Source: an uncultured Candidatus Saccharibacteria bacterium
GTDB taxonomy: Bacteria; Patescibacteriota; Saccharimonadia; Saccharimonadales; AWTP1-31
Direction: 5' to 3'
DNA length: 64,000 bases
Assembly (NCBI GenBank): GCA_937903325.1
Contig: CALCZR010000058.1
Location: 129,034-193,033, forward strand
Part shown: piece by piece, positions 19,444 to 48,356 of the stretch
Layout of the letters: every line of letters starts with the position of its first letter
How positions within the stretch are numbered: position 1 is the first letter of the stretch
Notes under the pieces: generated by a model
Database searches by the model: none
Seen by the model: the letters and a program-made list of their open reading frames with translations, nothing else
What the model was told of the DNA's origin: nothing
Program-made: the position numbers and the translations under genes

Positions 19444-19459
19444 TGGTGACCTCACCGGG
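19444..19459. repeat. att core, left copy (TGGTGACCTCACCGGG)
   Basis: Exact 16-bp match to 48316-48331, which is the 3' end (including CCA) of tRNA-Glu on the minus strand. Confidence 0.6.
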
Positions 19460-19569
19460 GTTGGAGCGGAACACCCTAAGCTTACAGGAACTGGATGAGA
19501 AGCTTGAAGAGCTAGGTCTCGTTGAAATAAATGGTAAGATCGTCCTTATAGACAGCGAGGAGACTCGCA

Positions 19570-20052
19570 ATGTTTAATTTACTGCGCCGCAACCAATCAC
19601 CCCTCGACCTGCTAACGTCAAAACTACTCAATGAAGAGACGTTTTATCCTATGTTTACCAAAGATTTAAACAAATGCTCACAGGAGGTAATCATTGAGTC
19701 ACCATTTGTGACGAACAGACGTCTTTCGCAATTGCTACCAACTTTACAGAAACTCAAAGACCGCAAAGTACGAGTAATAATTAATACTCGTGATCCGATT
19801 GAGCACGATGATGAGTACCAAAGAGGAGATGCTCATAGTGCCATTGCAGCGTTGCAGCGAATTGGCGTTCAGGTTCTATATACAGCCGGGCATCATAGAA
19901 AGATAGTAATCCTCGATCGACAAATACTTTACGAAGGTTCACTCAATGTTCTATCCCAAAACGATAGCTGTGAAGTAATGCGACGAGTCGAATCTTCTCA
20001 GCTAGCATGGCAAATGGCCAGATTTGTCGGAATTGATAAGTTCTTAGGCTGA
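19570..20052 (+). CDS. PLD-family (single HKD motif) nuclease, Nuc-like
   Basis: HRKIVILDRQILYEGSLN matches HxK(x)4D(x)6GSxN exactly. Confidence 0.8.
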   Translation: MFNLLRRNQSPLDLLTSKLLNEETFYPMFTKDLNKCSQEVIIESPFVTNRRLSQLLPTLQKLKDRKVRVIINTRDPIEHDDEYQRGDAHSAIAALQRIGVQVLYTAGHHRKIVILDRQILYEGSLNVLSQNDSCEVMRRVESSQLAWQMARFVGIDKFLG

Positions 20053-20058
20053 TATACT

Positions 20059-20289
20059 ATGCGTATGCAAGGCTACAGACTAAATGACGAAGATACTGAC
20101 GCCATGGTGCGCTGGCTGAAGCTGAATCACCCAGAAAATGCTAATCGTGAGTACGCAGAATCTATGTTGATAGCAATGAAGCTCGCCTACAGGGAAATAG
20201 GCTGGAGTGATCCGGATGCGTTAGAAGGTTTTTACCAAGAATATATTAAGAAGCTGGCCGATCAAAACGGTAAAACATCTGAAGAGTGA
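20059..20289 (+). CDS. Hypothetical protein (76 aa)
   Basis: Supported by the ORF only; its 3' end overlaps the convergent XRE gene. Confidence 0.4.
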   Translation: MRMQGYRLNDEDTDAMVRWLKLNHPENANREYAESMLIAMKLAYREIGWSDPDALEGFYQEYIKKLADQNGKTSEE

Positions 20290-20474
20290 ACACCGAGAGC
20301 AGATACTACTTTTTTCAGCATTTTGAGTGACGGGGTAGACACAGCTTGCTCAAGTTTGGCGTAATACTTTTCATGAATACCAGCCTTCTTAGCAACCTGC
20401 TGTTGTGTCATGCGTTTATCAAAGCGTGCGTTCTTTAATGCCTGAGCAATATCGAGGGTCATTTTATCTGCCAT
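20262..20474 (-). CDS. XRE-family helix-turn-helix transcriptional regulator
   Basis: MTQQQVAKKAGIHEKYYAKLEQ is an HTH_3 pattern; 70 aa. Confidence 0.8.
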   Translation of the reverse strand: MADKMTLDIAQALKNARFDKRMTQQQVAKKAGIHEKYYAKLEQAVSTPSLKMLKKVVSALGVHSSDVLPF

Positions 20475-20590
20475 ATGGCTGTAATTATAGCACCAGAGGT
20501 CACTATTCTGTAAAACAATATTGCTTTACCCGCAATATTAAGCTACTCTTGCACTAGGAATACCTAACAGTGGTGGGTACGGGAGAAACG

Positions 20591-22078
20591 ATGTTCTTGC
20601 TTGCGTCCACTCAACCTAGCTTTATCGAACGATATCTTATCGGCACGTCGCCCACTGCACATCTCCTCAATATCCCAATTATAGTCATTGGCGGATGCCT
20701 CTTTATATGGTTCATCATCCTACCTATCGTTCGGATAATCCTCGACATTCTAGACTACCGGCGGCTACGTAAGCGTAAGTTAGTATTTCTAGAGTTAACA
20801 CCGCCTCATATCAGTACTAAGTCTCCACTGGCAACAACTGAGTTATATGACACTATCCACGGGTTGCTTAGTAGCGTTACGCACAAGGAGCGTCTATTCA
20901 ACCGTAAACATATATTGCCACTTGAGGTCTATGCTACTCGGGAAGAGGGCATCCGCTTTCGAGCAGCCCTTGATCCAGACGATGTTGAGCTTTTTCAACA
21001 ACTAGTTATTGCATACCTTCCTCAGATACAGTTTCGGGAAGTTAAAGATTACATGACGGCTGCACTCAATGGTCAAGATTTTCGTATTTTAGAGTTTGCT
21101 CAGACCAACCACTTTGCTTACCGACTAGCTGCCCATGATAACCTGAAGCAACACGATCCCATGGCCTACATAACCACCGCTATGACAAAACTTGGTGAAC
21201 ACGAGCTACTGGCTATGCAGTTGGTGCTATCTCCAGCTTCACCCAGAGCGGCAAATAAAATACGAAGTCAGTTACTGCACGGTGAAGATAAGGGATTAAA
21301 CCGCGAATGGTGGCACTATCCATTTATCTTTGTTGGCAAAGTTATCAAGCTCATTTTTAGTATGCTCGCTGGCTTATTGGAGATTCTTGGCGATGAAATG
21401 GCAGGCGTTCGAACGCCTCGCCAACAACAAGGATCTGGGTACTACGGCTCGCAGCAAAATATCGGTCCGATCAATAAGCCTGCAATTGATACCATCCATG
21501 CCAAGCTGGCTGAACAGCTATTCAATGTAGATATCCGTGCGTTAGTTGTCGGACCAAACAGTGGACAGCGGGCACAAGGGTTGGCCAACGCCCTCTATAT
21601 GTTCCGTGTACCTGGCTACCAAGGGCTGTACTCCCGAAAAGTGCGGTTGTTTAAAACTAAGCGAGTGGAGCATCGCTTGGACGCCTTTCATAAACGTTTG
21701 CCAGCTACGTTAACCCGTAACTCTTCGGTGCTCGGGACTTCCGAGTTAGCCGCCTTGTACCACTTCCCGTACGGGGAGCATATGCAGTCAGAAGATATGG
21801 TTAAGTCAGTGGCGAAAACACTGCCAGCCCCGCTATCTATGAAGAACCACGCTAATGCTGCCGATTACGATATTGTTCTCGGAACCAATAATCACCATGG
21901 TAGTCGCACCGCTATTGGCTTAACGGCTAAAGAACGAGAAAAGCATGTTTACCTCATTGGTGGTACCGGCAACGGCAAGACCACTATGCTGGAGTACGCC
22001 CTACTGCAAGACATCAAGGCCGGTAAAGGCGTAGCTTTTATTGATCCGCATGGTGACGCTGCTCAGAAACTCCTTTAG
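20591..22078 (+). CDS. TraD/VirD4-like type IV coupling-protein ATPase, N-terminal fragment (ends at in-frame TAG)
   Basis: TM segment IPIIVIGGCLFIWFIILPIV; Walker A GGTGNGKTT; FIDPHGD. The ATG at 20591 is preceded by GGGAG. The ORF ends at TAG 22076-22078 and the same frame continues. Confidence 0.7.
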   Translation: MFLLASTQPSFIERYLIGTSPTAHLLNIPIIVIGGCLFIWFIILPIVRIILDILDYRRLRKRKLVFLELTPPHISTKSPLATTELYDTIHGLLSSVTHKERLFNRKHILPLEVYATREEGIRFRAALDPDDVELFQQLVIAYLPQIQFREVKDYMTAALNGQDFRILEFAQTNHFAYRLAAHDNLKQHDPMAYITTAMTKLGEHELLAMQLVLSPASPRAANKIRSQLLHGEDKGLNREWWHYPFIFVGKVIKLIFSMLAGLLEILGDEMAGVRTPRQQQGSGYYGSQQNIGPINKPAIDTIHAKLAEQLFNVDIRALVVGPNSGQRAQGLANALYMFRVPGYQGLYSRKVRLFKTKRVEHRLDAFHKRLPATLTRNSSVLGTSELAALYHFPYGEHMQSEDMVKSVAKTLPAPLSMKNHANAADYDIVLGTNNHHGSRTAIGLTAKEREKHVYLIGGTGNGKTTMLEYALLQDIKAGKGVAFIDPHGDAAQKLL

Positions 22079-22108
22079 TACATCCCCAAGGAACGTATTA
22101 AAGACGTA

Positions 22109-23239
22109 GTGTATCTAAATCCTCGAGATATTAAGCACCCGATCGGTCTCAACCTCCTGGAGTTGCCTGAGGGACTCGACGAAGATGAGCTACTGGTCGA
22201 ACAAGAGCGAGTTACTGAAGCAGTGGTGTCGGTGCTTAGAAAAGTCTTCGCCGATGACGATGCTAACGCCCACCGGATCGAAGGAATGCTACGCAATACC
22301 ATTAGGACAGCCTTTAGCACTGAAAACCCAACATTGTTTACATGCTTGGAGTTACTGCGAAACAGCGAGTTTCGTAATAAAGTTGTTGCTAAACTCACGG
22401 AAGCCCACTTAAAAGATTTCTGGCGAGAAGAGTTTGGTAAAGCTGGAGGCATGCAACGAGTAAGTATGACCAAGGGTTTGACACATCGGTTAGACCGCTT
22501 CGATGGGTCACAGTTTGTAAACCGTATGATGAGTCAAAAGAAATCTACCATTAGCTTCGAGGATATTATTGACACTGGGAAGATCCTTATCTGTAACTTT
22601 AGTACTGACATGGGTGAAGATACCGCAACGTTGTTTGGTACAACTGTATTGGCTAAACTCAAGATTGCCGCCGAACGACGCCACAACCAGCCCGAAGCTC
22701 AGCGTAAGCCCTTTTACGTTTACGTAGATGAGTTCCAGAACTTTGCGACTACGCCGTTTGTGAAGATGCTGTCTGCTTCACGCAAATACAAGCTATTCTT
22801 AACCATTGCCGAACAATCTGCCGCTCAACAGGAAGAACAACGCTTAACGGAAGCGATCCTGGCCAACGTCAGTACAATTGTGTGCTTTGGATTGGGCAGC
22901 CCATTCGATGAGCGACTGTTATTAGGGCGGTATGAACCTTGGCTTGAGAAAGGCAACCTACTCAACCAGCCAGCCTACAACTTTTACCTGAGAGTTAAGG
23001 CCGAGGAACCGATGGAGCCGGTATCTGGGGAGACGATTGTTTTGCCGACGGAAGACGGCAGCGAGCAACGCGCCGACGAGGTGATTACAGCTTCCAGAGA
23101 AAACTATGCGGTTGAATGGAAAAGTTATATGCCCAGCAGGGCAAAGGACGCCTCCAAACAACCCGACGTCAAAGTAGCTAACAGTAGGGAGGGTGCTGAG
23201 AAGAGTGTAGATTTTCAAGCTAGAGCGCTGGATGCTTAA
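22109..23239 (+). CDS. TraD/VirD4-like ATPase, C-terminal fragment (same frame as 20591..22078)
   Basis: Continues directly after the TAG as YIPKERIKDVVYLNPRDIKHPIGLNLLE. Walker B FYVYVDEFQNF. The track's start at 22109 is only the first start-like codon. Confidence 0.7.
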   Translation: MYLNPRDIKHPIGLNLLELPEGLDEDELLVEQERVTEAVVSVLRKVFADDDANAHRIEGMLRNTIRTAFSTENPTLFTCLELLRNSEFRNKVVAKLTEAHLKDFWREEFGKAGGMQRVSMTKGLTHRLDRFDGSQFVNRMMSQKKSTISFEDIIDTGKILICNFSTDMGEDTATLFGTTVLAKLKIAAERRHNQPEAQRKPFYVYVDEFQNFATTPFVKMLSASRKYKLFLTIAEQSAAQQEEQRLTEAILANVSTIVCFGLGSPFDERLLLGRYEPWLEKGNLLNQPAYNFYLRVKAEEPMEPVSGETIVLPTEDGSEQRADEVITASRENYAVEWKSYMPSRAKDASKQPDVKVANSREGAEKSVDFQARALDA

Positions 23240-23309: not shown

Positions 23310-24785
23310 CTAGTTCCGTTTAGCGGCGATAGAGTAGCCGATGGCAGACAAACCAAGTAGTGTGGCGATAACCACGCCAAGTAGAGATACTGAATTGATG
23401 CCGGTGTTTGGTGCGGCAGCATTAGTGCCAGCATTTGCATTGGTGGTTGTAGCTGAGCAGACAGCACCTTCGAATTGGTAGGCACCAACAGATGGACAAG
23501 AATTACGGGCTACACCACGAGCATCGGTAGATATGCCTAAGACCTGACCACCGGCGTTAATTGCCGGACTACCTGCCAATAAGGCCATGGTTGGTACAAC
23601 ACCACCATTGTCCTGCAGCGGGCCGAGAGTGCTGAAAAGATTGGCAAGATTTTGTTGGTCGCCGGGTTGGGTAAAGGTGGTACACGTACTATCGTCGGAT
23701 AAATTATGGCCGTCGGAAATAATCCCGGTAGTAACCGTGCCTGTCAGGCCACCAAATGCCGCATTACCATTTAATTCAGCACAGTTGGACGATACATTAT
23801 CGCTGATATTATTGGTGAGCAGGCTATTTTCGACGTTCATAGTAACGGACGAGGTGTGCGGTGTCGCCGCTGCTCCACCGGTGAAGAAGGCCACTGAATT
23901 TTCACCAATCGAACCAGTACTTCCGTCAAGTCCGACAACTGTTACGTTTTTTACAATCACACTGATGGTGGTATCACCGCTCAACGCCGCACCAATGCTT
24001 CCAAATCCTAGCGCTGCTGCAGAAGCAGTTATGTTATTAATAGTTGTATTGTAGACATTTGCATTTACCGTGCCGGTTCCGGCTATTAGGACAAAGAAGG
24101 CTCCGGCATCGCCAGCAGAGTTATGTATATTTGCTACCGTAGTATTCTGTATATTGGCCGTAGGTGTAGAGGTATTGAAGGCATATACCCCACTAGTTGC
24201 CGCGGCGTCTAGATCATGAATATAGACGTTATTAGCTGTCGTGGTAACATTGGCCGCTGCGGAGTTGCCCAGTTCCACACCCTTTAATTGGTTCCCCGTT
24301 GGCAGGGCGTTAGTGCCATCTATTTCAATGTTTGATAGTGTCACACTGCCATTGGTGCTGATAATTCCTTGCCCAAGATAGCTGGCTATTTTCAAGTCCT
24401 GGACAGTAACGACAGCCGTAGAACTGTTGATGCGAATTGTGCGATATTGCCCAGCATTTCCATCAATTGTCGTCTGGCTCATCCCAGCTCCCTGGATCTT
24501 GACCGACACCGATATTGTCGGTGAATCTGCTGTTAACATCTGCGTGCCGGCAGGTATGGTAATAGTGTCATTAGTTCCGTAACCTTCTGGTGACACAATA
24601 GCCGTACAGCCAGATTGGTCAGAGCCAGCATTTACTGAGTTAATAGCAATAGGGAGCGTACAACCACCAGATACATTTAGGGTTGCGGCGTGTGCTCGTC
24701 CAGAACCGGAAGCCATGACTGCCAAAAAGGCGAAAGTTGCCAGGATTAGTTTGTTTGTTTTTGTTAGATTTAAAATACTGAGCAT
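23310..24785 (-). CDS. Secreted beta-helix surface protein, family member 1 (choice-of-anchor-Q-like C-terminal domain, APNTG sorting signal)
   Basis: Signal peptide MLSILNLTKTNKLILATFAFLAVMASGSGRAHA; conserved C-terminal block GHNLSDD..C..F.QPGDQQN..LGPLQDNGG.VPT.ALLAGSPAI.AG...TDARGVAR; then APNTG, a hydrophobic helix and KRN. Confidence 0.85.
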   Translation of the reverse strand: MLSILNLTKTNKLILATFAFLAVMASGSGRAHAATLNVSGGCTLPIAINSVNAGSDQSGCTAIVSPEGYGTNDTITIPAGTQMLTADSPTISVSVKIQGAGMSQTTIDGNAGQYRTIRINSSTAVVTVQDLKIASYLGQGIISTNGSVTLSNIEIDGTNALPTGNQLKGVELGNSAAANVTTTANNVYIHDLDAAATSGVYAFNTSTPTANIQNTTVANIHNSAGDAGAFFVLIAGTGTVNANVYNTTINNITASAAALGFGSIGAALSGDTTISVIVKNVTVVGLDGSTGSIGENSVAFFTGGAAATPHTSSVTMNVENSLLTNNISDNVSSNCAELNGNAAFGGLTGTVTTGIISDGHNLSDDSTCTTFTQPGDQQNLANLFSTLGPLQDNGGVVPTMALLAGSPAINAGGQVLGISTDARGVARNSCPSVGAYQFEGAVCSATTTNANAGTNAAAPNTGINSVSLLGVVIATLLGLSAIGYSIAAKRN

Positions 24786-24824: not shown

Positions 24825-24853
24825 ATTCTACCCCCCCCTGAGATACAATGCAA
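24825..24853 (-). promoter_or_regulatory. Candidate promoter with G8 tract in spacer (member 1)
   Basis: Coding strand reads TTGCAT-TGTATCTCA-G8-TAGAAT, spacer 17 nt. The C run on the plus strand is 24831-24838. Confidence 0.5.
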
Positions 24854-24863
24854 GGAACTAGCC

Positions 24864-25097
24864 TTATAGTTCACCACTGAGTATTCGCGAGACATCGATG
24901 TAGCGTTGGCAGTCATCAATACTACGATCAGCTAGGGGAATGGCGAGGATACGCTCAAAGTCAGTCTGTGCGGCGGTCAAGTCTTCGTCGTAAGTTACAG
25001 CTAATTCCGAGGCCAATACTTTAGACCCGAGTGAAGACGGAAAATATAATCCATGTTCGGCGGCTATCAGCTCATAGTCTGGTATTCTGTCTGTCAT
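24864..25097 (-). CDS. Small acidic protein, paralog of 36511..36747
   Basis: 77 aa. Shares TY(D/E)..L..AQ..FER..AIP...R...D......DVS..L with the other copy. Both lie just downstream of a family member. Confidence 0.55.
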   Translation of the reverse strand: MTDRIPDYELIAAEHGLYFPSSLGSKVLASELAVTYDEDLTAAQTDFERILAIPLADRSIDDCQRYIDVSRILSGEL

Positions 25098-25128
25098 CTG
25101 TTAACCATACCATGAGGAACAATATTTA

Positions 25129-25186
25129 CTAACGTCTTTCTGTTGTGACAATCACCAGAGAGTCATAAGTTTTACTGGTTTTATGT
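25129..25186 (-). pseudogene. Relic of a sortase gene 3' end
   Basis: gacaatcaccagagagtcataagtttt matches the 3' ends of both island sortase genes with 1-2 mismatches. It translates as KTYDSLVIVTTERR*, against KTYDSRVIVVAEA(F/Y)* in the intact genes. No upstream sortase ORF remains. Confidence 0.5.
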
Positions 25187-25214
25187 ATTGGTTTTCCTCA
25201 AACGAGCCATAAAC

Positions 25215-40933: not shown

Positions 40934-41554
40934 TTATTTGAAGTACCAAATATCTTCAGTGCGCTTGTTGATAACTTTTAGGTAGATATCGCTGTCAGTT
41001 TTACGCTTTTGAGTTGTTCGTAAAAGACTACCCGCAACCATATCTGCCAGCTGAATCAAGTTATCATTCTTAGAGTTAACAAACTTCATATCTTTTATTA
41101 TGCTACCGTCTGGATTAGCCTGCTGGCGAAAATACGTTGTTGCCGCTTTCTTGTAGGACCGGTCTTCGTGACCATCAAGACGAATCCGTCCATCGGTAAT
41201 CTTGCCAGCACTTTTAGAGAGCACCTCTTTGATCATGTAGTTATAGAATTTATCCTTGTTTCTCCTAAGTTCAACGCTTCTGATGATAGACTTATCGGCG
41301 ACTATTGCCCGAACCCGGAACTTACAACTTTTTATCTCGTTTAAAAAAGCGAGACGTATATCTTTACTAGCTTTGTTGAACTTAAACTCATGATCGTCTC
41401 GCCATCCAAGCGAACGACGCAATCGCTTGATCTTAAGTGCCGTTTCTTCGGCATCAAGGTTGTCATCAAAGACAATGCAGGCAATAACAAAGTGTGTGCT
41501 CGAACCCTTATCAAATTTAAAGCCCGGATCTCCTGAATCATCTATGAATACCAG
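40934..41554 (-). CDS. DUF3800 domain protein, copy 2 (identical to copy 1)
   Basis: Identical sequence to 26931..27551. Confidence 0.65.
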   Translation of the reverse strand: MVFIDDSGDPGFKFDKGSSTHFVIACIVFDDNLDAEETALKIKRLRRSLGWRDDHEFKFNKASKDIRLAFLNEIKSCKFRVRAIVADKSIIRSVELRRNKDKFYNYMIKEVLSKSAGKITDGRIRLDGHEDRSYKKAATTYFRQQANPDGSIIKDMKFVNSKNDNLIQLADMVAGSLLRTTQKRKTDSDIYLKVINKRTEDIWYFK

Positions 41555-41603
41555 TATGTATTATATGATCATATTTAGCTCAAAGCTACTGGACAGGTCT
41601 AAA

Positions 41604-43100
41604 CTAGGCTCGCTTGTGAGCGAAGACATAACCGAGAGTTAATAGCCCGGTAAAAGAAGCAAGCAACGAACTTACGAGAGAGACAGGGTTAGCGCCGGTG
41701 TTTGGAGCTCCGGCATTAGTTCCTGCGTTAGTCGTAGAGGCCGCACAGACAGCTCCTTCAAATTGGAAGGCTCCAACGGAAGGACAATCGCTTGGGCGGG
41801 CAATACCACGAGCATCTGTAGTTACACCGAGTACTGAACCGCCCGAAGCTATGGCTGGTGAGCCAGGAAGGAGAGCACGAGTCGGAACAGCACCACCATT
41901 GTTCTGGAGAGGGCCGAGAGTGGAGATGATGTTATTGACGTTTTGTTGGTCGCCTTCTTCAGTAAAGGAGGTACAAGTAGCATCGTCGGAGATGTTGTGA
42001 CCGAGGGAGGCAGTAGTCGCAATTCCAGTTCCCGTCCCGCCAAAGCTACTAGTAAAGTTGGCGGACTCACAGTTGGAAGAGTTAGTATCAGTTAGGTTAT
42101 CAGCGAACAGACTATTACCCACACGAAGCGTAGAGGTTGCTACATCGCTACTACCCAACCCTGCTGCGGCTGAATAGAAAGCTGCTGATTTAATACCAGC
42201 AATCGGGAAGATAGCACCAGTCGAACCTCGGTTCCCAGTAATAGTGCTATTATAAACATCTACTGTTACATTTGCCGTGCCCCCACTAGCGAAAGCAAAG
42301 GTTGCATACGGCGCGCTAATTTCGCTGGCGCTTAGGTTGCTAAGAGTTGCATTACTGATAGTGCCATTGATATTGCCTACTGCACCAAAAGTGGGTACCG
42401 CCCCAATACCTAAGACAAACCCATCGAACGAGCCGCCGGAGTTGCTGGAATCGGCTAGAGTTATATTACTAAGATCGGCGGTTGTTGTTCCACCCCCGCT
42501 TTGGTGAACCGAGAATCCATACATAATATCATGATCATCATTAATGTCATGTAGGTAGATATTATTGCTTGTGATTGTCTTACTAGATGAAGTACTGTTG
42601 ACGATAATTATGCTATAGAAAGCGTCTGTGGCCCCCGTACCATCAACTTCAATATTCTCTAGTGTTACGTCACAGTCCTCGGTGCTGACCGCAGACTCTC
42701 TATATGCCGTCACTGTTAGATCAGATATAGCGATAGTTACATCTTGAGCTTCAAAGGCAACAGCATCACTGTCACCATCAACAATAGTATCGCCAATACC
42801 AGCCCCCTGTATCGTTACATCTTCAGTAATAGCGGGTAGACTTGCGGTAAGCGTAATGGTTCCTGCAGGAATAGTGATCGTGTCATTTGTGCCATATGAA
42901 TCAGGAGATACCACTGCAGTACAGCCAGATTGATTTGCGCCAGCGTTTACTGAGTTGATGGCAATTGGTAGCGTACAGCCTCCGGTCACGTTGAGCGTTG
43001 CAGCGTTAGCTCGTCCAGAACCAAATGTAAAAACAGCAAGAAAGGCAAAGGCGGCAAGAATTAATTTTGTTGTATTTGTTAGATTCAGAATGCTTTGCAT
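41604..43100 (-). CDS. Secreted beta-helix surface protein, family member 6
   Basis: MQSILNLTNTTKLILAAFAFLAVFTFGSGRANA; conserved C-terminal block; GAPNTG, a TM and HKRA. The C-terminus is closest to member 3. Confidence 0.85.
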   Translation of the reverse strand: MQSILNLTNTTKLILAAFAFLAVFTFGSGRANAATLNVTGGCTLPIAINSVNAGANQSGCTAVVSPDSYGTNDTITIPAGTITLTASLPAITEDVTIQGAGIGDTIVDGDSDAVAFEAQDVTIAISDLTVTAYRESAVSTEDCDVTLENIEVDGTGATDAFYSIIIVNSTSSSKTITSNNIYLHDINDDHDIMYGFSVHQSGGGTTTADLSNITLADSSNSGGSFDGFVLGIGAVPTFGAVGNINGTISNATLSNLSASEISAPYATFAFASGGTANVTVDVYNSTITGNRGSTGAIFPIAGIKSAAFYSAAAGLGSSDVATSTLRVGNSLFADNLTDTNSSNCESANFTSSFGGTGTGIATTASLGHNISDDATCTSFTEEGDQQNVNNIISTLGPLQNNGGAVPTRALLPGSPAIASGGSVLGVTTDARGIARPSDCPSVGAFQFEGAVCAASTTNAGTNAGAPNTGANPVSLVSSLLASFTGLLTLGYVFAHKRA

Positions 43101-43137
43101 GATTTAGTTCCTATGTTAACGCTTGTGTTTAATAGGT

Positions 43138-43166
43138 AGTCTACCCCCCCCCGATATTTTGAGCAA
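43138..43166 (-). promoter_or_regulatory. Candidate promoter with G9 tract in spacer (member 6)
   Basis: TTGCTC-AAAATATC-G9-TAGACT, spacer 17 nt. C run 43144-43152. Confidence 0.5.
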
Positions 43167-43177
43167 GTCTAAGCTAC

Positions 43178-43861
43178 CTAGTAGGCTTCAGCCACGACAA
43201 TCACCCGAGAGTCATAAGTTTTGCTATCTTTATCAAATCGACCAGTGCAGGTTATGAGGTTGAGCTGCTTGGGAATGGTCTTGTCGCGTACAAAGAGAGC
43301 GGTATCAGCTTCTTTGGTAGAAACTGTTTGGACTTGTTTGACCTTGAACTTTCTAACGCTTTTATCGCCGTAAGTTACCGTGAATGTATCACTAGTCTTG
43401 AGCTTACCCAGGTTGTAGAAGATTCCTTTAGCATATAGCCCATGCACATGCCCGTCGATAATACTGAGGCCAGCATCACCAGGCAAGGAGCCCTTGGTGT
43501 ACCAGCCAGCCATATGGACGTTGCTTGGTACTACCATCTGATTATCTTTGTCTACGCCTACCTGCTGGATAAAACCTTCTGTCTTAATTGTTGGCAACTG
43601 AATAGACAATGGCTTATCTTCTGGAACGCTGTAACTGTCCGGTACTGGCTGTTCGCTGGGAGCATCGGTGGATTCTGTTGCTACGGTGTGTCCAGTCGGT
43701 ACACCGGCATGTTGAATGAAGTACCAGTTTCGTATTGCATTCAGGCCAACGCCAACAAGTAATATGCCTACTATGAATAACGCAAAGCGAATATTTCGTT
43801 GATTCTTAGAGACTGCTCCACGCTTTGATGAATTACTTCTACGCTCCTTGAATCGAACCAT
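43178..43861 (-). CDS. Sortase (island copy 2)
   Basis: Paralog of 38545..39243 with a near-identical C-terminal half (VRKFKVKQVQTVSTKEADTALFVRDKTI.KQLNLITCTG.FDKDSKTYDSRVIVVAEA). Starts 15 nt after the member 7 stop. Confidence 0.85.
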   Translation of the reverse strand: MVRFKERRSNSSKRGAVSKNQRNIRFALFIVGILLVGVGLNAIRNWYFIQHAGVPTGHTVATESTDAPSEQPVPDSYSVPEDKPLSIQLPTIKTEGFIQQVGVDKDNQMVVPSNVHMAGWYTKGSLPGDAGLSIIDGHVHGLYAKGIFYNLGKLKTSDTFTVTYGDKSVRKFKVKQVQTVSTKEADTALFVRDKTIPKQLNLITCTGRFDKDSKTYDSRVIVVAEAY

Positions 43862-43876: not shown

Positions 43877-45376
43877 CTAGCTCGAGCGTTGTTGCTTGTG
43901 GAATACGTATGTTAGTAGTCCAATGCCGAGCATGCTGGCAAGCACATTGAGTATTTGTGCTACAGATCCAACGCCCGTGTTTGGAGCTCCTGCGTTACTA
44001 CCGCCAGATGCAGATGGAGTAGAAGCACCGCAGACTGCACCTTCATATTGGTAGGCACCTACAGATGGGCATTCATCTGGGCGTGCTACACCACGGGCAT
44101 CTGTAGTAATACCGAGGACAGAACCGCCAGCAGAAATTGCCGGAGAACCAGGAAGAAGTGCACGAGTTGGGACTGCGCCTCCGTTGTTTTGAAGAGGGCC
44201 AAGGGTGGAAATGATGTTATTAACATTTTGTTGATCGCCTGGTTGGTTGAAACCAGCGCAACTGGCATCGTCTGAGATATTGTAGCCAGCAGAAGTAATG
44301 ATGCTATTTACCGTGCCGACTCCGCCAACGTTACCTGACATATCTCCATAGGAACAGTTCGACGATACACCGTTATTTAGGTTGTCGGCCATAAGACTAT
44401 TGCTAACTGTAATGCTAACGTTGGCCTCATCACTAGGACCTCCGGCAAGTCCGGCGGCATAAAAAGCGGCCGTGTTTAACCCTGCAGTGATACCGCTACC
44501 CGCAAAGCCACGCACACCAGTAACGGTGATGTTATTGATATTAGTCGTTGCGGTGGAATCGCCATTTGTCGCTGCAGCAAATGTTGCAAACGGCGCTACG
44601 ATAAGTGAACTCGTGATGTCGTGAATAGTTGCGTTACTAATAACAGACGTGATAGTGCCGCCCCCATTACCTGGATAACCAGCGGATAGAATAATCCCGT
44701 TCACGCCAGCCAAAGTATTGTGGACATTAGCAAGTGTAATGTTGTTGATGTTTACATCATAATGCCCACCAGCTCGTGAGCCGACGCTGAACCCCTCTGC
44801 ATATTGCCCGTTTGTGCCAGTAAGACTATGGATATAAATATTCTCGGCACTGACATCTAACGAAGCACTGTTACTCGAAAAAATTATAATGCCATTTGCA
44901 TTACCTGTCTGGCCGGTGCCGTCTACTTCGATATTCTCGAGGACTACATCGCAGTTGACCAGCTGAATTGCTGTCGCCTTACTTGCAGTAACTTTTAGAT
45001 CGGTAACGGTAACAGATCCTGATGCCATACCGGTTTCAAACACCTTCCATGCATTACCGTTAATTGTGGTTTGGCTCATGCCAGCACCATGTATTTCCAC
45101 TGACTCTGTAAGCAGCGGCAGGTCGGCCGCCAACGTAACGGTACCGGCAGGAATGGTAATGGTGTCACTCGTCCCGTAGCTAGCACCCGTTGCTGTGCAA
45201 CCAGACTGGTTTGCTGCAGCATTAACAGAGTTGATAGCAATTGGCAGCGTGCAGCCACCCGTTACATTAAGAGTTGCAGCATGTGCCCTACCCGAACCAA
45301 AAGCCAAGACTGCCACAAAGGCAAAAGCCGCTAGGACTAATTTGTTTGTTTTAGTTAGATTCAGAATACTGAGCAT
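43877..45376 (-). CDS. Secreted beta-helix surface protein, family member 7
   Basis: The family N-terminus begins at MLSILNLTKTNKLVLAAFAFVAVLAFGSGRAHA (ATG 45376). The track ORF's 44-aa upstream extension runs through the promoter and G tract. GAPNTG, a TM and HKQQRSS. Confidence 0.85.
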   Translation of the reverse strand: MLSILNLTKTNKLVLAAFAFVAVLAFGSGRAHAATLNVTGGCTLPIAINSVNAAANQSGCTATGASYGTSDTITIPAGTVTLAADLPLLTESVEIHGAGMSQTTINGNAWKVFETGMASGSVTVTDLKVTASKATAIQLVNCDVVLENIEVDGTGQTGNANGIIIFSSNSASLDVSAENIYIHSLTGTNGQYAEGFSVGSRAGGHYDVNINNITLANVHNTLAGVNGIILSAGYPGNGGGTITSVISNATIHDITSSLIVAPFATFAAATNGDSTATTNINNITVTGVRGFAGSGITAGLNTAAFYAAGLAGGPSDEANVSITVSNSLMADNLNNGVSSNCSYGDMSGNVGGVGTVNSIITSAGYNISDDASCAGFNQPGDQQNVNNIISTLGPLQNNGGAVPTRALLPGSPAISAGGSVLGITTDARGVARPDECPSVGAYQYEGAVCGASTPSASGGSNAGAPNTGVGSVAQILNVLASMLGIGLLTYVFHKQQRSS

Positions 45377-45442: not shown

Positions 45443-45534
45443 ATTATTCTGGAAGATCATGTCTCTTTCCTTTGGAAACAGACCAACCATTATTTGCTTT
45501 GCAAACACTGGTTACAAAATAAGGACTTCACATA

Positions 45535-46314
45535 CTAACGTTCTATGAATAGAAACTCAAATTTAACACTAACCCAGTTATTGTCTAGCTCTCGTTTAGT
45601 CAAATTCTGTAGTCTTCGCTCAAGAGCCTTTGCGTCACAAGCTATGAGCACTACGGGAAAGTCTTTTTCGGTGGCTTTCTGCCACTTTTCTGATTCGGCA
45701 TAGGTAATGTAGCGTCTTATGCTGTTTCTAATCCTCCAGTAGGGCGCACTGGCCTCATAGAAGCTTAGGAAATAGTCTGGAGCGGTTAGTTGAAGCTTGC
45801 GTACAACGGCGCTGTCTTTAATATCTTCGTTCTTTTTTAGGTACGCATCGGTTAGGTCTCTTGGGAGCTTATATTTCAAGCTAGGCAATTCGCTCTTGCT
45901 GAAGAACTGAAATTGCTTGGGGTAATTTTGTTTGATGAATACGTAGGCTTTAAAGACGTTTAGCCTGTGTTGGATATGAACGTCGTCTTTGTTCTTGTCA
46001 TAATAGGCTTGCTTGAGTACGTTTGGATCTACAAATGGCTGCTGTCTGAGTATTTGTATTCCTTTTGGTAGTAAGTGATATGTAGCCGGTTTACCAATGA
46101 TCTTATAGCTTTTGTCATAGTTCTGCCCGATGTATCCTTGATCTACTAATATCTTTAGTCTTGTTAGTATTACTCTAGTATGTTTAGCTCCTTGACTTGA
46201 GGCAATGAGTTGAGCTGTGGTATAGCGAAATTTATAGAGTGTTGTGAGTAGTTGAAGTTGATGTGAGTTTATAGGTCGGTGTTTGGTGTTGGTAGGTTGT
46301 GGTGGTGTATTCAT
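45535..46314 (-). CDS. Replication-relaxation-family-like wHTH protein
   Basis: The N-terminal INSHQLQLLTTLYKFRYTTAQLIASSQGAKHTRVILTRLKILVDQGYIG fits the replication-relaxation pattern seen on Gram-positive plasmids and ICEs. Motif-level call only. Confidence 0.5.
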   Translation of the reverse strand: MNTPPQPTNTKHRPINSHQLQLLTTLYKFRYTTAQLIASSQGAKHTRVILTRLKILVDQGYIGQNYDKSYKIIGKPATYHLLPKGIQILRQQPFVDPNVLKQAYYDKNKDDVHIQHRLNVFKAYVFIKQNYPKQFQFFSKSELPSLKYKLPRDLTDAYLKKNEDIKDSAVVRKLQLTAPDYFLSFYEASAPYWRIRNSIRRYITYAESEKWQKATEKDFPVVLIACDAKALERRLQNLTKRELDNNWVSVKFEFLFIER

Positions 46315-46332
46315 AAGTAGAGTTTATATACG

Positions 46333-46354
46333 CCTATCTATGTTAATAGATAGG
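46333..46354. promoter_or_regulatory. Perfect 9-bp palindrome in divergent intergenic region (operator or oriT-like candidate)
   Basis: CCTATCTAT-GTTA-ATAGATAGG lies 19 bp upstream of the replication-relaxation gene start, in an AT-rich spacer shared with the recombinase gene. Confidence 0.3.
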
Positions 46355-46640
46355 TAAGTAAAGATGCAAGCCCTTAACTCCTTATTATTTAATATTTATA
46401 TATCGTATCGGCAGGATATCCACAGTTGTATTTAATACCTTGGTAATACACTTGTAGGTATACTTATTAGTGGTATATACTAAGCTTATAAGTGGGGGTA
46501 GCCATGATACAGAAAGAACCAATCCAGCCGAGCCCAGAAGACACTTCCGAAGCGCCGTTGTCAGATAATGAGCGTATCGATCTCATCGCTAATTTACTTT
46601 TGGATTACTTAGATGAAGAGCAATCGGGAGAAGAAGGGTC

Positions 46641-48356
46641 ATGCAAGACGACGCAAACAAAAATGCTGTAGCCGCGATTAGAGTCTCGACGACCAAGCAG
46701 GGTACGGAGGGTGACTCTCCCGAAGCTCAGAAAGAGCAAATTGAGCGCTTTGCTTTAACCCGTGGTATCACCATAAAAAAGTTCTTTGTCTTTTTGGAAT
46801 CCGCCAGTAAAGAGCAGCAGCCAATGCAGGAAGCTATTGATTACTGCAAGAATCCTAAGAACGGCATTGAACTGTTTATCATAAAATCGATTGACCGTTT
46901 TACTCGAGGCGGATCACTATCGTACGACCTGCTCAAAAACCAGCTGGAAGCAAATAATGTGTCATTGGTAGACATTTACGGCGTGATTAGCTCGCGGCAG
47001 GTGAATACCCTAGAACACCTCGGCTTTGAATATAAGTGGAGTAAATACTCTCCAAGCAAGAAATCCGAGATACTAGAGGCCGAGCGTTCCAAGGATGAAC
47101 TGCGGGATATTATGAGTCGTATGATTGGGGCTGAAATCCGCTATACCCAACTCGGTTTTTGGATGCGACAACCGCCGTTCGGTTTTGTCAGTGAGAAAGT
47201 CGAAACGAACAATGGAAAACGTTGCATATTACAACCCCATCCGACTGAAGCCCAGTACATTACAAAGATTTTCGATCTGCGTGCTCGTGGCACGATGCGT
47301 GATATGGAGATTGTTGAGGAAGTTAATAAGCTAGGCTACCGAGGACGGGTGCACTATGTTCGTGATAAGAGCGATCGATCTAAAGTTTTAAAGAAGCGCG
47401 GAGGCGATCCCTTAACCCTCAAGGCCTTAGATCGTATCGTCACTAATCCAATCTACGCTGGGATTAATGCCGAGAAGTGGACAGACGGCAAGCCGGTACA
47501 GTGCGCTTTTAAAGGCCTAGTATCTATTGACCAGTTCAACCGAGCTAACAAAGGCAAAAAGGTCATCACCAAAGACGAGCAAGGTGACATTGTCATCATA
47601 AAAAGAGAGCTAGAGCCACGGTATGCGACCATCAAAGGTTCTCGTAACCCTGATTTTCCGTACCGCAAGTTTGTGCTGTGCCCAGAATGCCACAGACCGC
47701 TTATCGGCAGTGCTTCACGCGGCAAGTCCGGTAAACATTATCCGGCCTATCACTGTGACAAACGAGGCCACTATTTCCGTGTGCCTAAAAAGGAATTGGA
47801 GGACAGAGTGAACGAGTTTATTAACGGTATTCGTGTCTCGCCGGAGCAGGTCGATAGGGTTCTGAACGTTATTGAAGCTGAGTGGAAGAAACGGGAACAA
47901 GCACTCAAACAAGAGCTTGAGACGCTTGATAGCCACATTCAGGGCTTACGTACTGAAATCGAAATGACTGGAAGCAAGATTAAGCTCGTAAGCAACGAGA
48001 CAGCAATTAAATATATAGAGGAGGACATTGTGCGTATAGAACAACAAATTAAAGAGTTGGAGGCTACTAAGATGAAGAAGATAAACCGTAAACCTATTAA
48101 TTGGCAACGCTTGAAGGCTAGGGTTCGTTACCTGGCGGAACACTTTGATGAGCTACTGTTACAACAGATTGATCCGGTCAAAAAAGCACAGTTTTTTGCC
48201 GCATTATTCAATAATTTTCCAACATTTGAAGATTTAGCCAGCGGAACACCCGGCAAGCCAAACTTTACAGGGGTGAATCCAATATTTTCTCTCGCTAAAT
48301 TACCTACTACCCATTTGGTGACCTCACCGGGAATCGAACCCGGATTGCCGGGATGA
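46641..48356 (+). CDS. Large serine recombinase (integrase)
   Basis: Resolvase catalytic motif AAIRVSTTKQ, recombinase domain, zinc ribbon CPECHRPL...YHCDKRGH, coiled-coil region. The last 14 codons (48315-48356) are antisense to tRNA-Glu. Confidence 0.9.
   Translation: MQDDANKNAVAAIRVSTTKQGTEGDSPEAQKEQIERFALTRGITIKKFFVFLESASKEQQPMQEAIDYCKNPKNGIELFIIKSIDRFTRGGSLSYDLLKNQLEANNVSLVDIYGVISSRQVNTLEHLGFEYKWSKYSPSKKSEILEAERSKDELRDIMSRMIGAEIRYTQLGFWMRQPPFGFVSEKVETNNGKRCILQPHPTEAQYITKIFDLRARGTMRDMEIVEEVNKLGYRGRVHYVRDKSDRSKVLKKRGGDPLTLKALDRIVTNPIYAGINAEKWTDGKPVQCAFKGLVSIDQFNRANKGKKVITKDEQGDIVIIKRELEPRYATIKGSRNPDFPYRKFVLCPECHRPLIGSASRGKSGKHYPAYHCDKRGHYFRVPKKELEDRVNEFINGIRVSPEQVDRVLNVIEAEWKKREQALKQELETLDSHIQGLRTEIEMTGSKIKLVSNETAIKYIEEDIVRIEQQIKELEATKMKKINRKPINWQRLKARVRYLAEHFDELLLQQIDPVKKAQFFAALFNNFPTFEDLASGTPGKPNFTGVNPIFSLAKLPTTHLVTSPGIEPGLPG
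48316..48331. repeat. att core, right copy (TGGTGACCTCACCGGG)
   Basis: Exact match to 19444-19459. It forms the 3' acceptor/CCA end of tRNA-Glu. Confidence 0.6.

What the first reader, a model, noticed from the sequence alone, without database searches (positions are those of the whole stretch)
19444..48331. About 28.9-kb element integrated into the 3' end of tRNA-Glu(CUC), bounded by a 16-bp direct repeat
TGGTGACCTCACCGGG occurs at 48316-48331, where it is the acceptor/CCA end of an intact minus-strand tRNA-Glu, and again at 19444-19459. On the tRNA strand, the distal copy is followed immediately by a hairpin and a T6 run (19409-19440). This looks like the original tRNA terminator, now 29 kb from the gene. 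Mobility-type genes lie between the repeats. They are a large serine recombinase abutting the tRNA, a replication-relaxation-like protein, a TraD/VirD4-like ATPase, a single-HKD Nuc-like nuclease and an XRE regulator. Housekeeping genes resume directly outside both repeats. The evidence is a single 16-mer pair plus context, so the boundaries are a hypothesis.
Basis: partly seen in the sequence, partly recalled or inferred. Interest (0 to 1): 0.7.

Follow-up and report, generated by a model that had tools for sequence, protein, structure and literature searches.

The report
Integrated mobile element in Saccharibacteria tRNA-Glu
The 28.9-kb stretch is a genuine integrated mobile element in a Candidatus Saccharibacteria (TM7) genome, inserted by a large serine recombinase into the 3' end of a tRNA-Glu gene; it belongs to a large family I found no description of, and it carries surface-protein genes rather than housekeeping genes.

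Summary
The observation and the proposed boundaries hold. The 16-mer occurs exactly twice: at the 3' end of tRNA-Glu(CUC) and 28.9 kb away next to a terminator-like hairpin.

The decisive evidence is a 10.7-kb relative in another Saccharibacteria genome (L017). It is 86-92% identical in DNA to the window's element and sits in a different gene, tRNA-Glu(UUC). Similarity begins exactly at the distal 16-mer and ends in the tRNA. The flanks are unrelated.

Chromosomal DNA of these species is only 73-75% identical.

The backbone is:
- a PLD nuclease, a 76-aa protein and an XRE regulator;
- a VirD4-like coupling ATPase;
- a MOBC-type (Replic_Relax) relaxase and a 55-aa protein;
- a large serine recombinase whose reading frame crosses the attachment site into the tRNA.

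There is no mating-pore gene, so it looks like an integrative mobilizable element. In this copy a single AAG-to-TAG change splits the coupling ATPase.

About 18 kb of extra cargo has accumulated. In all, the cargo holds seven paralogous sortase-anchored surface proteins, six with poly-G promoter tracts, plus two sortases and a 2271-aa sensor kinase.

102 of the 120 best recombinase homologs end in tRNA-Glu-antisense tails. No excised form or same-species empty site was found.

The parts
19409..19443 (-). Displaced terminator-like hairpin plus U6 of tRNA-Glu(CUC). This is chromosomal DNA just outside the element.
   Evidence: Fold of 19395-19459 (minus strand) gives -36.2 kcal/mol, z = -6.9. 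L017 has a different hairpin plus T8 at the equivalent position next to its distal repeat.
19444..19459 (.). attR core: the distal copy of the 16-bp repeat TGGTGACCTCACCGGG.
   Evidence: Similarity to the L017 element begins exactly here.
19460..19569 (+). Element left end (P' arm). It is open in the recombinase reading frame and would encode an alternative C-terminal tail of about 38 aa when joined to the right end.
   Evidence: The reconstructed attP gives a 601-aa ORF. Of the 19 substitutions between the window and L017 in this stretch, 13 are at codon position 3. Similar WNxL/acidic-helix tails occur in about 10 homologs.
19570..20052 (+). Single-HKD PLD-family (Nuc-like) nuclease.
   Evidence: PF13091, E = 7.5e-11. 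94.5% identical in L017. Replaced by an Mrr_cat nuclease in the second element of L018.
20059..20289 (+). Conserved 76-aa backbone protein of unknown function; a possible accessory or directionality factor.
   Evidence: Conserved in L017, L022 and the second element of L018. No Pfam or PHROG hit.
20262..20474 (-). XRE-family HTH regulator.
   Evidence: HTH_3 in precomputed Pfam. RstR-like hit, E = 2.3e-12.
20570..23239 (+). VirD4/TraD-like coupling ATPase gene, interrupted by an in-frame TAG at 22076-22078 (a pseudogene or a split gene).
   Evidence: PF10412 and PF12696 hits. The two halves hit positions 27-449 and 467-798 of phrog_5156. An intact 888-aa ortholog is present in L017. The codon is AAG in L017 and TAG here. 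TAG is the commonest stop codon in the window.
23310..24785 (-). Surface protein paralog A: signal peptide, beta-helix, choice-of-anchor Q domain, APNTG sorting signal.
   Evidence: NF041518, E = 8e-18. Sequence. 98% identical to the L017 ortholog.
24831..24838 (-). G8 tract in the spacer of a promoter-like site upstream of paralog A. Similar tracts lie at 26759-26765, 38511-38518, 40762-40768, 43144-43152 and 45419-45427.
   Evidence: These are the only G/C runs of 7 nt or more in the 64-kb window. Orthologous tracts differ by 1 nt in L007 and L018.
24864..43170 (-). Approximately 18.3-kb cargo expansion that is absent from the compact L017 element. It contains:
- a 77-aa ORF;
- paralogs B (25215-26717), C (27601-29136), D (36782-38467), E (39248-40720) and F (41604-43100);
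- two DUF3800 genes (26931-27419 and 40934-41422);
- a sortase (38545-39243);
- a 2271-aa fn3/HisKA/HATPase protein (29190-36005);
- small ORFs at 36108-36509 and 36511-36747.
   Evidence: A segmental duplication, 26476-27928 versus 40479-41925, is 89.6% identical.
43178..43861 (-). Sortase (class F-like).
   Evidence: PF04203, E = 6e-19. NF033748, E = 1.4e-33, below the curated cutoff. 89% identical in L017.
43877..45376 (-). Surface protein paralog G. The mechanical ORF runs to 45508, but the real start is near 45376.
   Evidence: Gene calls of 499 aa in identical contigs. The G9 promoter tract lies inside the longer ORF.
45535..46314 (-). Replic_Relax (PD-(D/E)XK, MOBC-type) putative relaxase.
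   Evidence: PF13814, 27.3 bits against a cutoff of 25.3. phrog_9381, 'replication initiation by nicking', E = 2e-4. PF13814 is equated with MOBC in PMC5357655.
46504..46671 (+). Conserved 55-aa acidic ORF overlapping the recombinase start; a candidate accessory or directionality factor.
   Evidence: The motif SDNERI(D/E)LIA.L is conserved in L017, L018 and L022, with a diverged ETERLEYIAALLL in L016; the adjacent recombinases are 62-96% identical to the window's.
46641..48356 (+). Large serine recombinase of 571 aa. The ORF crosses attL and terminates 41 nt inside the tRNA gene.
   Evidence: PF00239, PF07508 and PF13408 hits. phrog_95 integrase, E = 1e-40. The AlphaFold model matches full-length serine integrase cryo-EM structures at E = 1e-19 to 1e-14. 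C-terminal tail.
48316..48331 (.). [quoted passage not shown]
48316..48390 (-). tRNA-Glu(CUC), the integration target, still intact.
   Evidence: ARAGORN. The same tRNA with the same junction is present in L005 and L007.

Best explanation
The interval 19444-48331 is an integrated mobile element of a Saccharibacteria-specific family.

Integration. Its large serine recombinase joined an attachment site (attP) that lies inside the 3' end of its own gene to the 3' end of tRNA-Glu(CUC). The result is a 16-bp direct repeat and an intact tRNA. The tRNA's terminator was displaced 28.9 kb. The boundaries and the independent integration events are shown. The chemistry is inferred from the protein family.

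Crossover position. In L017 the distal repeat has C at position 13 and the tRNA copy has G. The crossover therefore lies in the first 12 bp. It is probably within TGGTGA, the only block shared by all junction types seen.

Transfer. The backbone encodes a MOBC-type relaxase and a VirD4-like coupling ATPase but no VirB4 or mating-pore genes. The most likely route is therefore that of an integrative mobilizable element: excise to a circle, be nicked by the relaxase, and be docked by its own coupling protein onto a T4SS encoded elsewhere. T4SSs are reported to be near-ubiquitous in Patescibacteria. This step is inferred.

State of this copy. The coupling ATPase gene carries a single-base nonsense mutation (AAG to TAG). 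The copy is probably transfer-defective even if it can still excise. It has also gained about 18 kb of cargo by duplication and recombination.

Cargo. The cargo holds seven paralogous sortase-anchored choice-of-anchor-Q surface proteins, two sortases and a giant sensor kinase. Six of the seven surface-protein genes lie behind promoter-like sites that contain poly-G tracts. The likely function is variable cell-surface or adhesion properties for an epibiotic bacterium (inferred).
For: Repeat and tRNA.

Boundaries:
- L017 carries a 10.68-kb relative in tRNA-Glu(UUC), bounded by TGGTGACCTCACCGGG and TGGTGACCTCACGGGG.
- The window and L017 are 91.6% identical over 5.36 kb at the left end and 86-88% at the right end.
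- Identity starts at the repeat edge, and the flanks give no blastn match.

Element versus chromosome:
- Chromosomal DNA is 75% identical to L006, which comes from the same MAG as L017, and 73% identical to L007.
- The element is 88-92% identical.
- In L005 identity steps from 83-98% inside to 49-81% outside, at the tRNA.

Synteny without the island: L011 has RluB-RR-HK-tRNA-Glu(CUC), then 3.5 kb, then the 377-aa homolog, and further on RlmH.

Recombinase:
- Pfam hits and phrog_95 at E = 1e-40.
- Fold matches to full-length serine integrases.
- 102 of the 120 best homologs end in tRNA-Glu-antisense tails.
- L015 and L008 also have the recombinase ORF running into a tRNA-Glu gene; in L015 the overlap is 41 nt, as in the window.

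Transfer genes:
- PF13814 is above its gathering score.
- The intact 888-aa ortholog has TrwB_AAD_bind and TraG-D_C hits above their cutoffs and a T4SS-DNA_transf hit just below its cutoff.
- Among the element ORFs scanned (the listed genes plus a few small ORFs), no VirB4 or pore component appeared.

Literature:
- The combination of serine integrase, MOBC relaxase and VirD4 is streptococcal IME class 8 (PMC5357655).
- In Patescibacteria the T4SS is widespread, relaxases are rare, MOBC is the commonest relaxase class, and thousands of T4CP genes lie far from virB4 (PMC12102498).

Nonsense codon.

Composition shift inside the element.
Against:
- Every contig of the same strain or species is occupied.
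- The relaxase assignment rests on a weak Pfam hit (27.3 bits against a cutoff of 25.3).
- No oriT is identified.
- Whether this host has a T4SS was not checked; none lies in the window.
- The coupling ATPase is broken in this copy.
- L006 and L017 are linked only by MAG membership.
Confidence: 0.85

Rival explanations
1. This is a fixed, decaying genomic island. It arrived by site-specific integration but is now immobile and inherited vertically in this lineage, functioning only as a surface-protein gene cluster.
For: - All same-strain contigs from several samples are occupied and 100% identical where compared (L001-L004).
- No attB or attP junction was found.
- The coupling ATPase carries a nonsense codon.
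- The element is nearly three times the size of the compact relative, because of cargo expansion.
Against: - The recombinase (571 aa, 96% identical to the L017 copy), both att cores, the relaxase and the small conserved ORFs are all intact.
- Only one inactivating mutation is visible.
- Near-identical backbones sit in different tRNA genes and different species, so the family was mobile recently.
Confidence: 0.35
2. It is an integrative plasmid-like element that does not use conjugation. Replic_Relax would act as a nicking replication initiator for the excised circle. The VirD4-like ATPase would serve another DNA-pumping role. Spread would be by natural transformation or cell contact rather than by a T4SS.
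For: - The Replic_Relax protein hits phrog_9381, 'replication initiation by nicking'.
- The Pfam family is named for both replication and relaxation.
- Some family members lack the coupling ATPase altogether, for example the second element in L018.
- PMC12102498 notes that the t4cp gene is not essential and may have been exapted.
Against: The co-occurrence of a MOBC-type relaxase, a VirD4-type coupling protein and a serine integrase is a known mobilization module (PMC5357655). No partition or copy-control genes were seen.
Confidence: 0.2
3. It is a prophage or a phage satellite integrated at the tRNA.
For: Integration at a tRNA, an XRE repressor-like gene, and an integrase hit in PHROGs.
Against: - No capsid, portal, tail or lysis genes.
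- The only 'terminase' hit is a weak P-loop match (E = 3e-4) inside the coupling ATPase.
- No relative was found in IMG/VR.
- The best phage recombinases are only 22-23% identical.
Confidence: 0.03
4. The 16-mer pair is a chance or tRNA-derived repeat that has nothing to do with the boundaries of any element.
For: Within the window alone there is only one pair.
Against: Zero matches are expected by chance. The same repeat bounds the related element in L017, with identity breaking exactly at it.
Confidence: 0.01

Closest known systems
Streptococcal integrative mobilizable elements of class 8 (serine integrase, MOBC/PF13814 relaxase and VirD4 coupling protein; Coluzzi et al. 2017, PMC5357655)
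   Same: The same three-part module is present: a serine integrase at one end, a Replic_Relax/MOBC relaxase next to it, and a VirD4-type coupling protein. There are no mating-pore genes, the backbone is compact, and direct repeats flank the element. Tandem accretion with related elements is also seen (L018).
   Different: - The host phylum is Patescibacteria.
- The recombinase is only distantly related to characterised ones: no PDB hit by sequence and 22-25% identity to phage and plasmid recombinases.
- The target is a tRNA 3' end.
- attP lies inside the integrase coding sequence.
- The left-end module is a nuclease, a 76-aa protein and an XRE regulator.
- The cargo encodes sortase-dependent surface proteins.
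Phage and ICE large serine integrases (SPbeta SprA, Bxb1, A118, TP901-1, phiC31)
   Same: The predicted fold matches full-length serine integrase structures at E = 1e-19 to 1e-14. The N-terminal RVST catalytic motif and the Cys/His zinc-ribbon residues are invariant in the family alignment. A long coiled coil is predicted at residues 401-481. The gene is adjacent to the attachment site.
   Different: - Characterised members integrate into protein-coding genes or intergenic sites. Mageeney et al. 2020 (PMC7192596) found only 14 of 297 serine-integrase elements at t(m)RNA genes and stated that such use had not been reported.
- Here the ORF runs through attP.
- Sixteen base pairs are identical between attP and attB.
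tRNA-targeting genomic islands and ICEs with tyrosine integrases (for example P4-like islands)
   Same: Integration is at the 3' end of a tRNA gene. The element restores the tRNA 3' end and leaves a direct repeat of the tRNA 3' end. The integrase gene abuts the tRNA.
   Different: The integrase is a serine recombinase, not a tyrosine recombinase. No Phage_integrase domain was found in any element ORF scanned.
Integration-dependent gene truncation in temperate mycobacteriophages (attP inside a coding gene; recalled from memory, not checked here)
   Same: attP lies within a coding sequence, so integration changes the C-terminus of the encoded protein.
   Different: In those phages the affected gene is the repressor and the integrase is a tyrosine recombinase. 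Here the recombinase's own tail is swapped, and no functional consequence has been shown.

Membership tests
Large serine recombinase (serine integrase) | N-terminal resolvase-type catalytic domain with the nucleophilic serine | tested here: met
   PF00239, E = 1.4e-9, above its cutoff. The sequence AAIRVSTTKQ is present. R14, S16, R86 and other residues are invariant in a 36-sequence alignment. The model superposes on the TP901-1 and TnpX catalytic domains.
Large serine recombinase (serine integrase) | C-terminal recombinase domain, zinc ribbon and coiled coil | tested here: met
   The Pfam hits are marginal (PF07508 at 21.0 bits against 21.1; PF13408 below its cutoff). However, the full-length model matches SPbeta-type and Bxb1 integrase cryo-EM structures over about 570 columns at E = 3e-19 to 2e-14. 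C347, C350, H371 and C372 are invariant. Helices span 401-481.
Large serine recombinase (serine integrase) | Catalyses attP x attB recombination at a central dinucleotide | not testable with these tools
   Only indirect evidence is available. The C13/G13 mismatch in L017 places the crossover within positions 1-12 of the core. Only TGGTGA is shared by all junction types.
Integrative mobilizable element (IME) | Bounded by att sites at a specific target, with its own integrase | tested here: met
Integrative mobilizable element (IME) | Encodes a relaxase and/or oriT | tested here: inconclusive
   The PF13814/MOBC-type protein scores just above its gathering score (27.3 against 25.3; 30.1 in L017). 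No oriT was identified and no nicking activity is shown.
Integrative mobilizable element (IME) | Lacks a complete mating-pore (T4SS) module | tested here: met
   Pfam, NCBIfam and PHROG scans of the listed element genes and a few small ORFs gave no VirB4, VirB6, VirB8 or pilin components.
Integrative mobilizable element (IME) | Excises to a circular intermediate | tested here: inconclusive
   The four-junction pattern scan of JGI metagenomes returned only an attL junction from another species. Junctions joining a recombinase 3' end directly to an element left end exist (L018, L022, L028). At least L018 is a tandem array, not a circle.
Integrative mobilizable element (IME) | Intact coupling protein (optional for IMEs, characteristic of class 8) | tested here: not met
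   In the window the gene is split by TAG at 22076-22078. It is intact (888 aa) in L017.
Integrative conjugative element (ICE) | Self-encoded VirB4 ATPase and mating-pore genes | tested here: not met
   None was found in the window element or in the compact L017 element.
Prophage | Capsid, portal, terminase and tail genes | tested here: not met
   A PHROGs scan of 10 ORFs gave no structural hits beyond a weak P-loop match. An IMG/VR scan found no relative.
Tyrosine-integrase tRNA island | Tyrosine recombinase (Phage_integrase domain) | tested here: not met
   No such domain was found in any element ORF scanned.

The most novel reading that the evidence does not exclude
This may be a founding example of a large, undescribed Saccharibacteria family of serine-recombinase elements dedicated to tRNA-Glu. 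Two properties would matter if real.

(1) attP sits inside the recombinase's own 3' coding end, so the enzyme exists in two forms. The integrated form is 571 aa and ends in a tail encoded by the tRNA antisense strand. The excised or tandem form is about 600 aa and ends in a conserved acidic helical tail encoded by the element's left end. This swap could help set the direction of recombination.

(2) The family's MOBC relaxase and VirD4-like coupling protein could be the 'missing' DNA-processing partners of the near-ubiquitous Patescibacterial T4SS. That would mean the T4SS still mediates conjugation.
Probability: 0.25. Interest if true: 0.75.

Novelty: new variant of a known kind. Interest (0 to 1): 0.55.

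Why it matters
- Mobile elements of Patescibacteria (CPR) are poorly characterised. A 2025 survey found a widespread T4SS in the group, few relaxases, and thousands of coupling-protein genes far from virB4, and left open whether the system conjugates at all (PMC12102498).
- This locus shows that at least some of those coupling-protein and MOBC genes sit on precisely bounded, recently mobile integrative elements. That makes the question testable.
- It is also a clear family-level case of a serine integrase using a tRNA gene as attB. A 2020 survey considered such use unreported and in need of proof (PMC7192596).
- A recombinase with a defined, conserved attB in Saccharibacteria could serve as a site-specific integration tool for these hard-to-manipulate bacteria.
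- The cargo consists of paralogous sortase-anchored surface proteins behind poly-G promoter tracts. It suggests horizontally acquired, possibly phase-variable, surface diversity in an epibiont.

Tried and rejected
- Junction scan. One IUPAC pattern covering all four junction types (attL, attR, attB, attP) was scanned against JGI metagenomes. It returned only one attL junction from another species, with no empty site or circle.
- Same-species empty site. Exact-protein look-ups of the left-flank 377-aa protein, the response regulator and the recombinase returned only occupied, identical contigs. The histidine kinase ORF as I delimited it was not on record.
- Homologs of the 377-aa flank protein. 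All are 47% identical or less. L012/L013 and L014 are not syntenic and were uninformative. Only L011 kept the synteny.
- L006. The tRNA-Glu(CUC) site in the closest species ends 44 nt past the tRNA at a contig end. The sequence there is not recombinase-like, but it does not align convincingly with the window's left flank. I do not count it as an empty site.
- L008. No second TGGTGACC within 9.7 kb upstream of its tRNA, so its distal end was not found.
- Viral contigs. No relative of the recombinase.
- Direct PDB sequence searches with the recombinase, the coupling ATPase and the relaxase gave nothing. A profile search gave only the TP901-1 catalytic domain.
- Crossover dinucleotide. I first proposed CC (positions 7-8, flanked by inverted GGTGA/TCACC) as the crossover. 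L028 has TGGTGA-GC at the equivalent junction. I therefore withdraw the specific dinucleotide and claim only the TGGTGA block.
- Contigs with the recombinase directly followed by a left-end module were considered as excised circles. L018 contains a second recombinase 8.3 kb downstream, so tandem accretion is the better reading there.
- TAG read-through or recoding was considered for the split ATPase. TAG terminates 27 of 44 long ORFs in the window, so it is an ordinary stop codon.

Full report
OBSERVATION

The 16-mer TGGTGACCTCACCGGG is present at 19444-19459 and 48316-48331 and nowhere else in the window, even allowing two mismatches. None of 100 dinucleotide-preserving shuffles gave a match.

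ARAGORN places tRNA-Glu(CUC) on the minus strand at 48316-48390. The proximal copy is therefore the last 16 nt of the tRNA: the T-stem 3' strand, the acceptor 3' strand, the discriminator base and an encoded CCA.

On the tRNA strand, the distal copy is followed three bases later by a hairpin and U6. The 65-nt stretch folds at -36.2 kcal/mol, z = -6.9. The simple terminator scan did not call this hairpin.

ORGANISM AND GENE CONTENT

Relatives found through the flanking histidine kinase are Candidatus Saccharibacteria MAGs.

Genes between the repeats, left to right:
- PLD-family nuclease, 19570-20052.
- 76-aa ORF, 20059-20289.
- XRE regulator, 20262-20474.
- VirD4/TraD-like ATPase in two in-frame pieces, 20570-22078 and 22109-23239.
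- Seven paralogous proteins of about 500 aa. Each has a conserved signal peptide, a beta-helix region, a choice-of-anchor Q domain (NF041518) and a C-terminal APNTG, hydrophobic and basic sorting signal. They are 32-58% identical to one another.
- Two sortases.
- Two DUF3800 genes.
- A 2271-aa protein with fn3 repeats and a C-terminal HisKA/HATPase kinase module.
- A Replic_Relax protein, 45535-46314.
- A 55-aa ORF, 46504-46671.
- A 571-aa serine recombinase, 46641-48356.

BOUNDARIES

The decisive comparison is L017, a 698-kb contig of GCA_964409615.1.

It carries a recombinase 96% identical to the window's. That recombinase abuts tRNA-Glu(UUC), a different gene from the window's target.

A 10.68-kb element there is bounded by TGGTGACCTCACCGGG (distal copy) and TGGTGACCTCACGGGG (tRNA copy).

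Laid side by side, the window and L017 are nearly identical from the first base after the distal repeat rightwards, and up to the tRNA on the other side. The sequences to the left of the distal repeats are unrelated. Each holds its own hairpin and T-run.

Identity figures:
- Left backbone: 91.6% over 5.36 kb.
- Right backbone: 86-88%.
- The 35 kb of window flanks against the 11 kb of L017 flanks: no blastn match.

By contrast, chromosomal DNA of the window is only 75% identical to L006, another contig of the same MAG. It is 73% identical to L007.

L007 and the metagenomic contig L005 carry the element at tRNA-Glu(CUC) with the same junction. In L005, identity steps from 83-98% inside to 49-81% outside, at the tRNA.

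A more distant Saccharimonadales genome (L011) keeps the order RluB-RR-HK-tRNA-Glu(CUC) and, 3.5 kb later, the homolog of the left-flank 377-aa gene, with RlmH further on. It has no recombinase or island.

GC content is 0.464 inside against 0.492 outside. Tetranucleotide distance from the flanks roughly doubles inside.

The family has integrated independently into two tRNA-Glu isoacceptor genes.

RECOMBINASE AND ATTACHMENT SITE

The protein has the following features:
- The resolvase catalytic domain and the RVST motif.
- Marginal Recombinase and zinc-ribbon Pfam hits.
- A strong PHROG integrase hit, E = 1e-40.
- Invariant Cys/His residues.
- An AlphaFold model (mean pLDDT 75) that matches full-length serine integrase cryo-EM structures, including Bxb1, at E = 3e-19 to 2e-14.

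It is remote from characterised enzymes. There is no PDB hit by sequence, and identity to phage and plasmid recombinases is 22-25%.

Its ORF runs through the attL core and stops 41 nt inside the tRNA. The last residues (..LVTSPGIEPGLPG) are therefore encoded by the tRNA antisense strand.

This is a property of the family. Among the 120 best of more than 1600 homologs:
- 102 end in tRNA-Glu-antisense tails.
- 6 end in tails that match another tRNA.
- 12 end otherwise.

L015, a relative of RAAC3_TM7_1, shows the same 41-nt overlap with tRNA-Glu(UUC).

In L017 the distal repeat has C at position 13, as in the window's element. The tRNA copy has the host's G, which pairs with the host T-stem. The exchange therefore lies within positions 1-12.

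Three junctions join a recombinase 3' end directly to an element left end (L018, L022, L028). They keep identity to the tRNA core only through TGGTGACC, TGGTGACCTC and TGGTGA respectively. I place the crossover in TGGTGA and withdraw an earlier guess of the CC dinucleotide.

ALTERNATIVE TAIL OF THE RECOMBINASE

Joining the element's right end to its left end, as in a circle, extends the recombinase ORF to 601 aa. The new tail..GLERNTLSLQELDEKLEELGLVEING.., is encoded at 19460-19569.

About ten homologs carry comparable WNxL and acidic-helix tails.

Of the 19 substitutions between the window and L017 in this 110-nt stretch, 13 fall at third codon positions. The stretch therefore evolves as coding sequence.

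The motif TGGAAYAC within it could also be a DNA-level half-site. Whether the two protein forms differ in activity is unknown.

TRANSFER FUNCTIONS

PF13814 (Replic_Relax) is a PD-(D/E)XK family (PMC3424549). It is treated as the MOBC relaxase class. In streptococci, MOBC together with VirD4 and a serine integrase defines IME class 8 (PMC5357655).

The ATPase is intact (888 aa) in L017, with TrwB_AAD_bind and TraG-D_C hits above their cutoffs and a T4SS-DNA_transf hit just below its cutoff.

In the window, codon 503 is TAG where L017 has AAG and L022 has Arg. TAG ends 27 of the 44 long ORFs in the window, so it is an ordinary stop. The two halves map to consecutive parts of phrog_5156.

No VirB4 or pore genes occur among the element genes scanned. 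The architecture is that of a mobilizable element, not a self-transmissible one.

A 2025 survey of Patescibacteria reported:
- a near-ubiquitous T4SS;
- only 109 relaxases, with MOBC the commonest class and 39 of them near t4cp;
- 5,713 T4CP homologs, mostly far from virB4.

The survey left the function of that T4SS open (PMC12102498). This locus gives those genes a concrete context.

FAMILY ARCHITECTURE AND CARGO

The conserved ends are:
- Left: a nuclease (PLD or Mrr), a protein of about 70-76 aa, and an XRE regulator.
- Right: a Replic_Relax-like protein, a 49-55-aa acidic ORF (motif SDNERIxLIA), and the recombinase.

Cargo varies between family members:
- Surface proteins and a sortase in the window, L017 and L007.
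- A restriction-modification system with an OLD/AAA_15 nuclease in L015 and L022.
- A copper ATPase, CsoR and DUF305 in the second element of L018.

L018 shows two elements in tandem. The first recombinase (96% identical to the window's) is followed directly by the second element's left end. A second recombinase (62% identical) lies 8.3 kb further on.

Relative to L017, the window's element has gained about 18.3 kb (about 24.8-43.2 kb). The gain includes a 1.45-kb segmental duplication at 89.6% identity.

WHAT WAS NOT FOUND

- No attP or attB junction.
- No same-species empty site.
- No relative in IMG/VR.
- No paper describing this family, among five relevant full-text searches.

Mageeney et al. 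2020 stated that use of t(m)RNA genes by serine integrases had not been reported. They found only 14 candidates among 297 (PMC7192596).

VERDICT

This is a real integrated element with the proposed boundaries. It is best classed as an integrative mobilizable element of a Saccharibacteria-specific, tRNA-Glu-targeting serine-recombinase family.

This copy is enlarged by surface-protein cargo and is probably transfer-defective.

The kind of element is known. The variant is new in three respects: a serine recombinase that targets a tRNA, an attP inside the recombinase ORF, and a Patescibacterial host.

Noticed in passing
window 24831-24838, 26759-26765, 38511-38518, 40762-40768, 43144-43152, 45419-45427: These are the only G/C homopolymers of 7 nt or more in the 64-kb window. 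Each is a G7-G9 tract (on the gene strand) in the 16-18-nt spacer between a TTGCxx -35-like hexamer and a TAGAAT/TAGACT/TACAAT -10-like hexamer. The tracts lie upstream of six of the seven surface-protein paralogs. Orthologous tracts differ by one G in L007 and L018. They are candidate slipped-strand phase-variable promoters.
   Followed up: partly
window 22076-22078: A single-base nonsense change splits the VirD4-like ATPase gene (AAG in L017, TAG here). The same sequence is present in three assemblies from different samples (L001-L003).
   Followed up: yes
window 29190-36005 (minus strand): A 2271-aa protein inside the element. It has a very large extracellular region (fn3 domains and a region resembling the M26 peptidase N-terminal region) fused to transmembrane segments and a HisKA/HATPase kinase. 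No response regulator is adjacent.
   Followed up: no
window 49957-50901; L025 8434-9564: The response regulator next to the tRNA is 314 aa in the window and in L023, but 376 aa in an otherwise matching contig (L025). It is longer still in other species (ORFs or gene calls of about 406 aa in L005, 443 in L008 and 537 in L011). Its C-terminal region is length-polymorphic.
   Followed up: no
window 26476-27928 and 40479-41925: A segmental duplication, 89.6% identical over 1457 nt. It covers a DUF3800 gene and the adjoining ends of two surface-protein genes. The DUF3800 ORFs match only the C-terminal part of the Pfam model and start with TTG, so they may be truncated.
   Followed up: partly
L018 5158-16930: Two elements lie in tandem. 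The first recombinase (96% identical to the window's) reads directly into the left end of a second element that carries a copper ATPase, DUF305, a CsoR-like regulator, a rhodanese and Crp. A second recombinase (62% identical) follows.
   Followed up: partly
L015 1-10000; L022 1-9700: Family members in other Saccharibacteria carry defence-type cargo next to the recombinase: an Eco57I-like type IIG enzyme or a ResIII helicase with a methylase, an OLD/AAA_15 nuclease, and T5orf172. L022 also has a tRNA-Asn gene inside this region.
   Followed up: no
proteins P0083, P0084, P0090, P0108, P0068, P0098: A subgroup of the recombinase family ends in a different tRNA-antisense-like tail (..FGDPKGNRTP..). 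This suggests a switch to another tRNA target.
   Followed up: no
protein P0078: The recombinase homolog of Candidatus Saccharibacteria RAAC3_TM7_1 is named 'NUDIX hydrolase' in NCBI/nr. This looks like a misannotation.
   Followed up: no
L006 1-119: In the closest related species, the contig carrying HK and tRNA-Glu(CUC) ends 44 nt past the tRNA. The sequence there is not recombinase-like. That tRNA has a G-type T-stem (..CACGGGG), unlike the element's core.
   Followed up: partly
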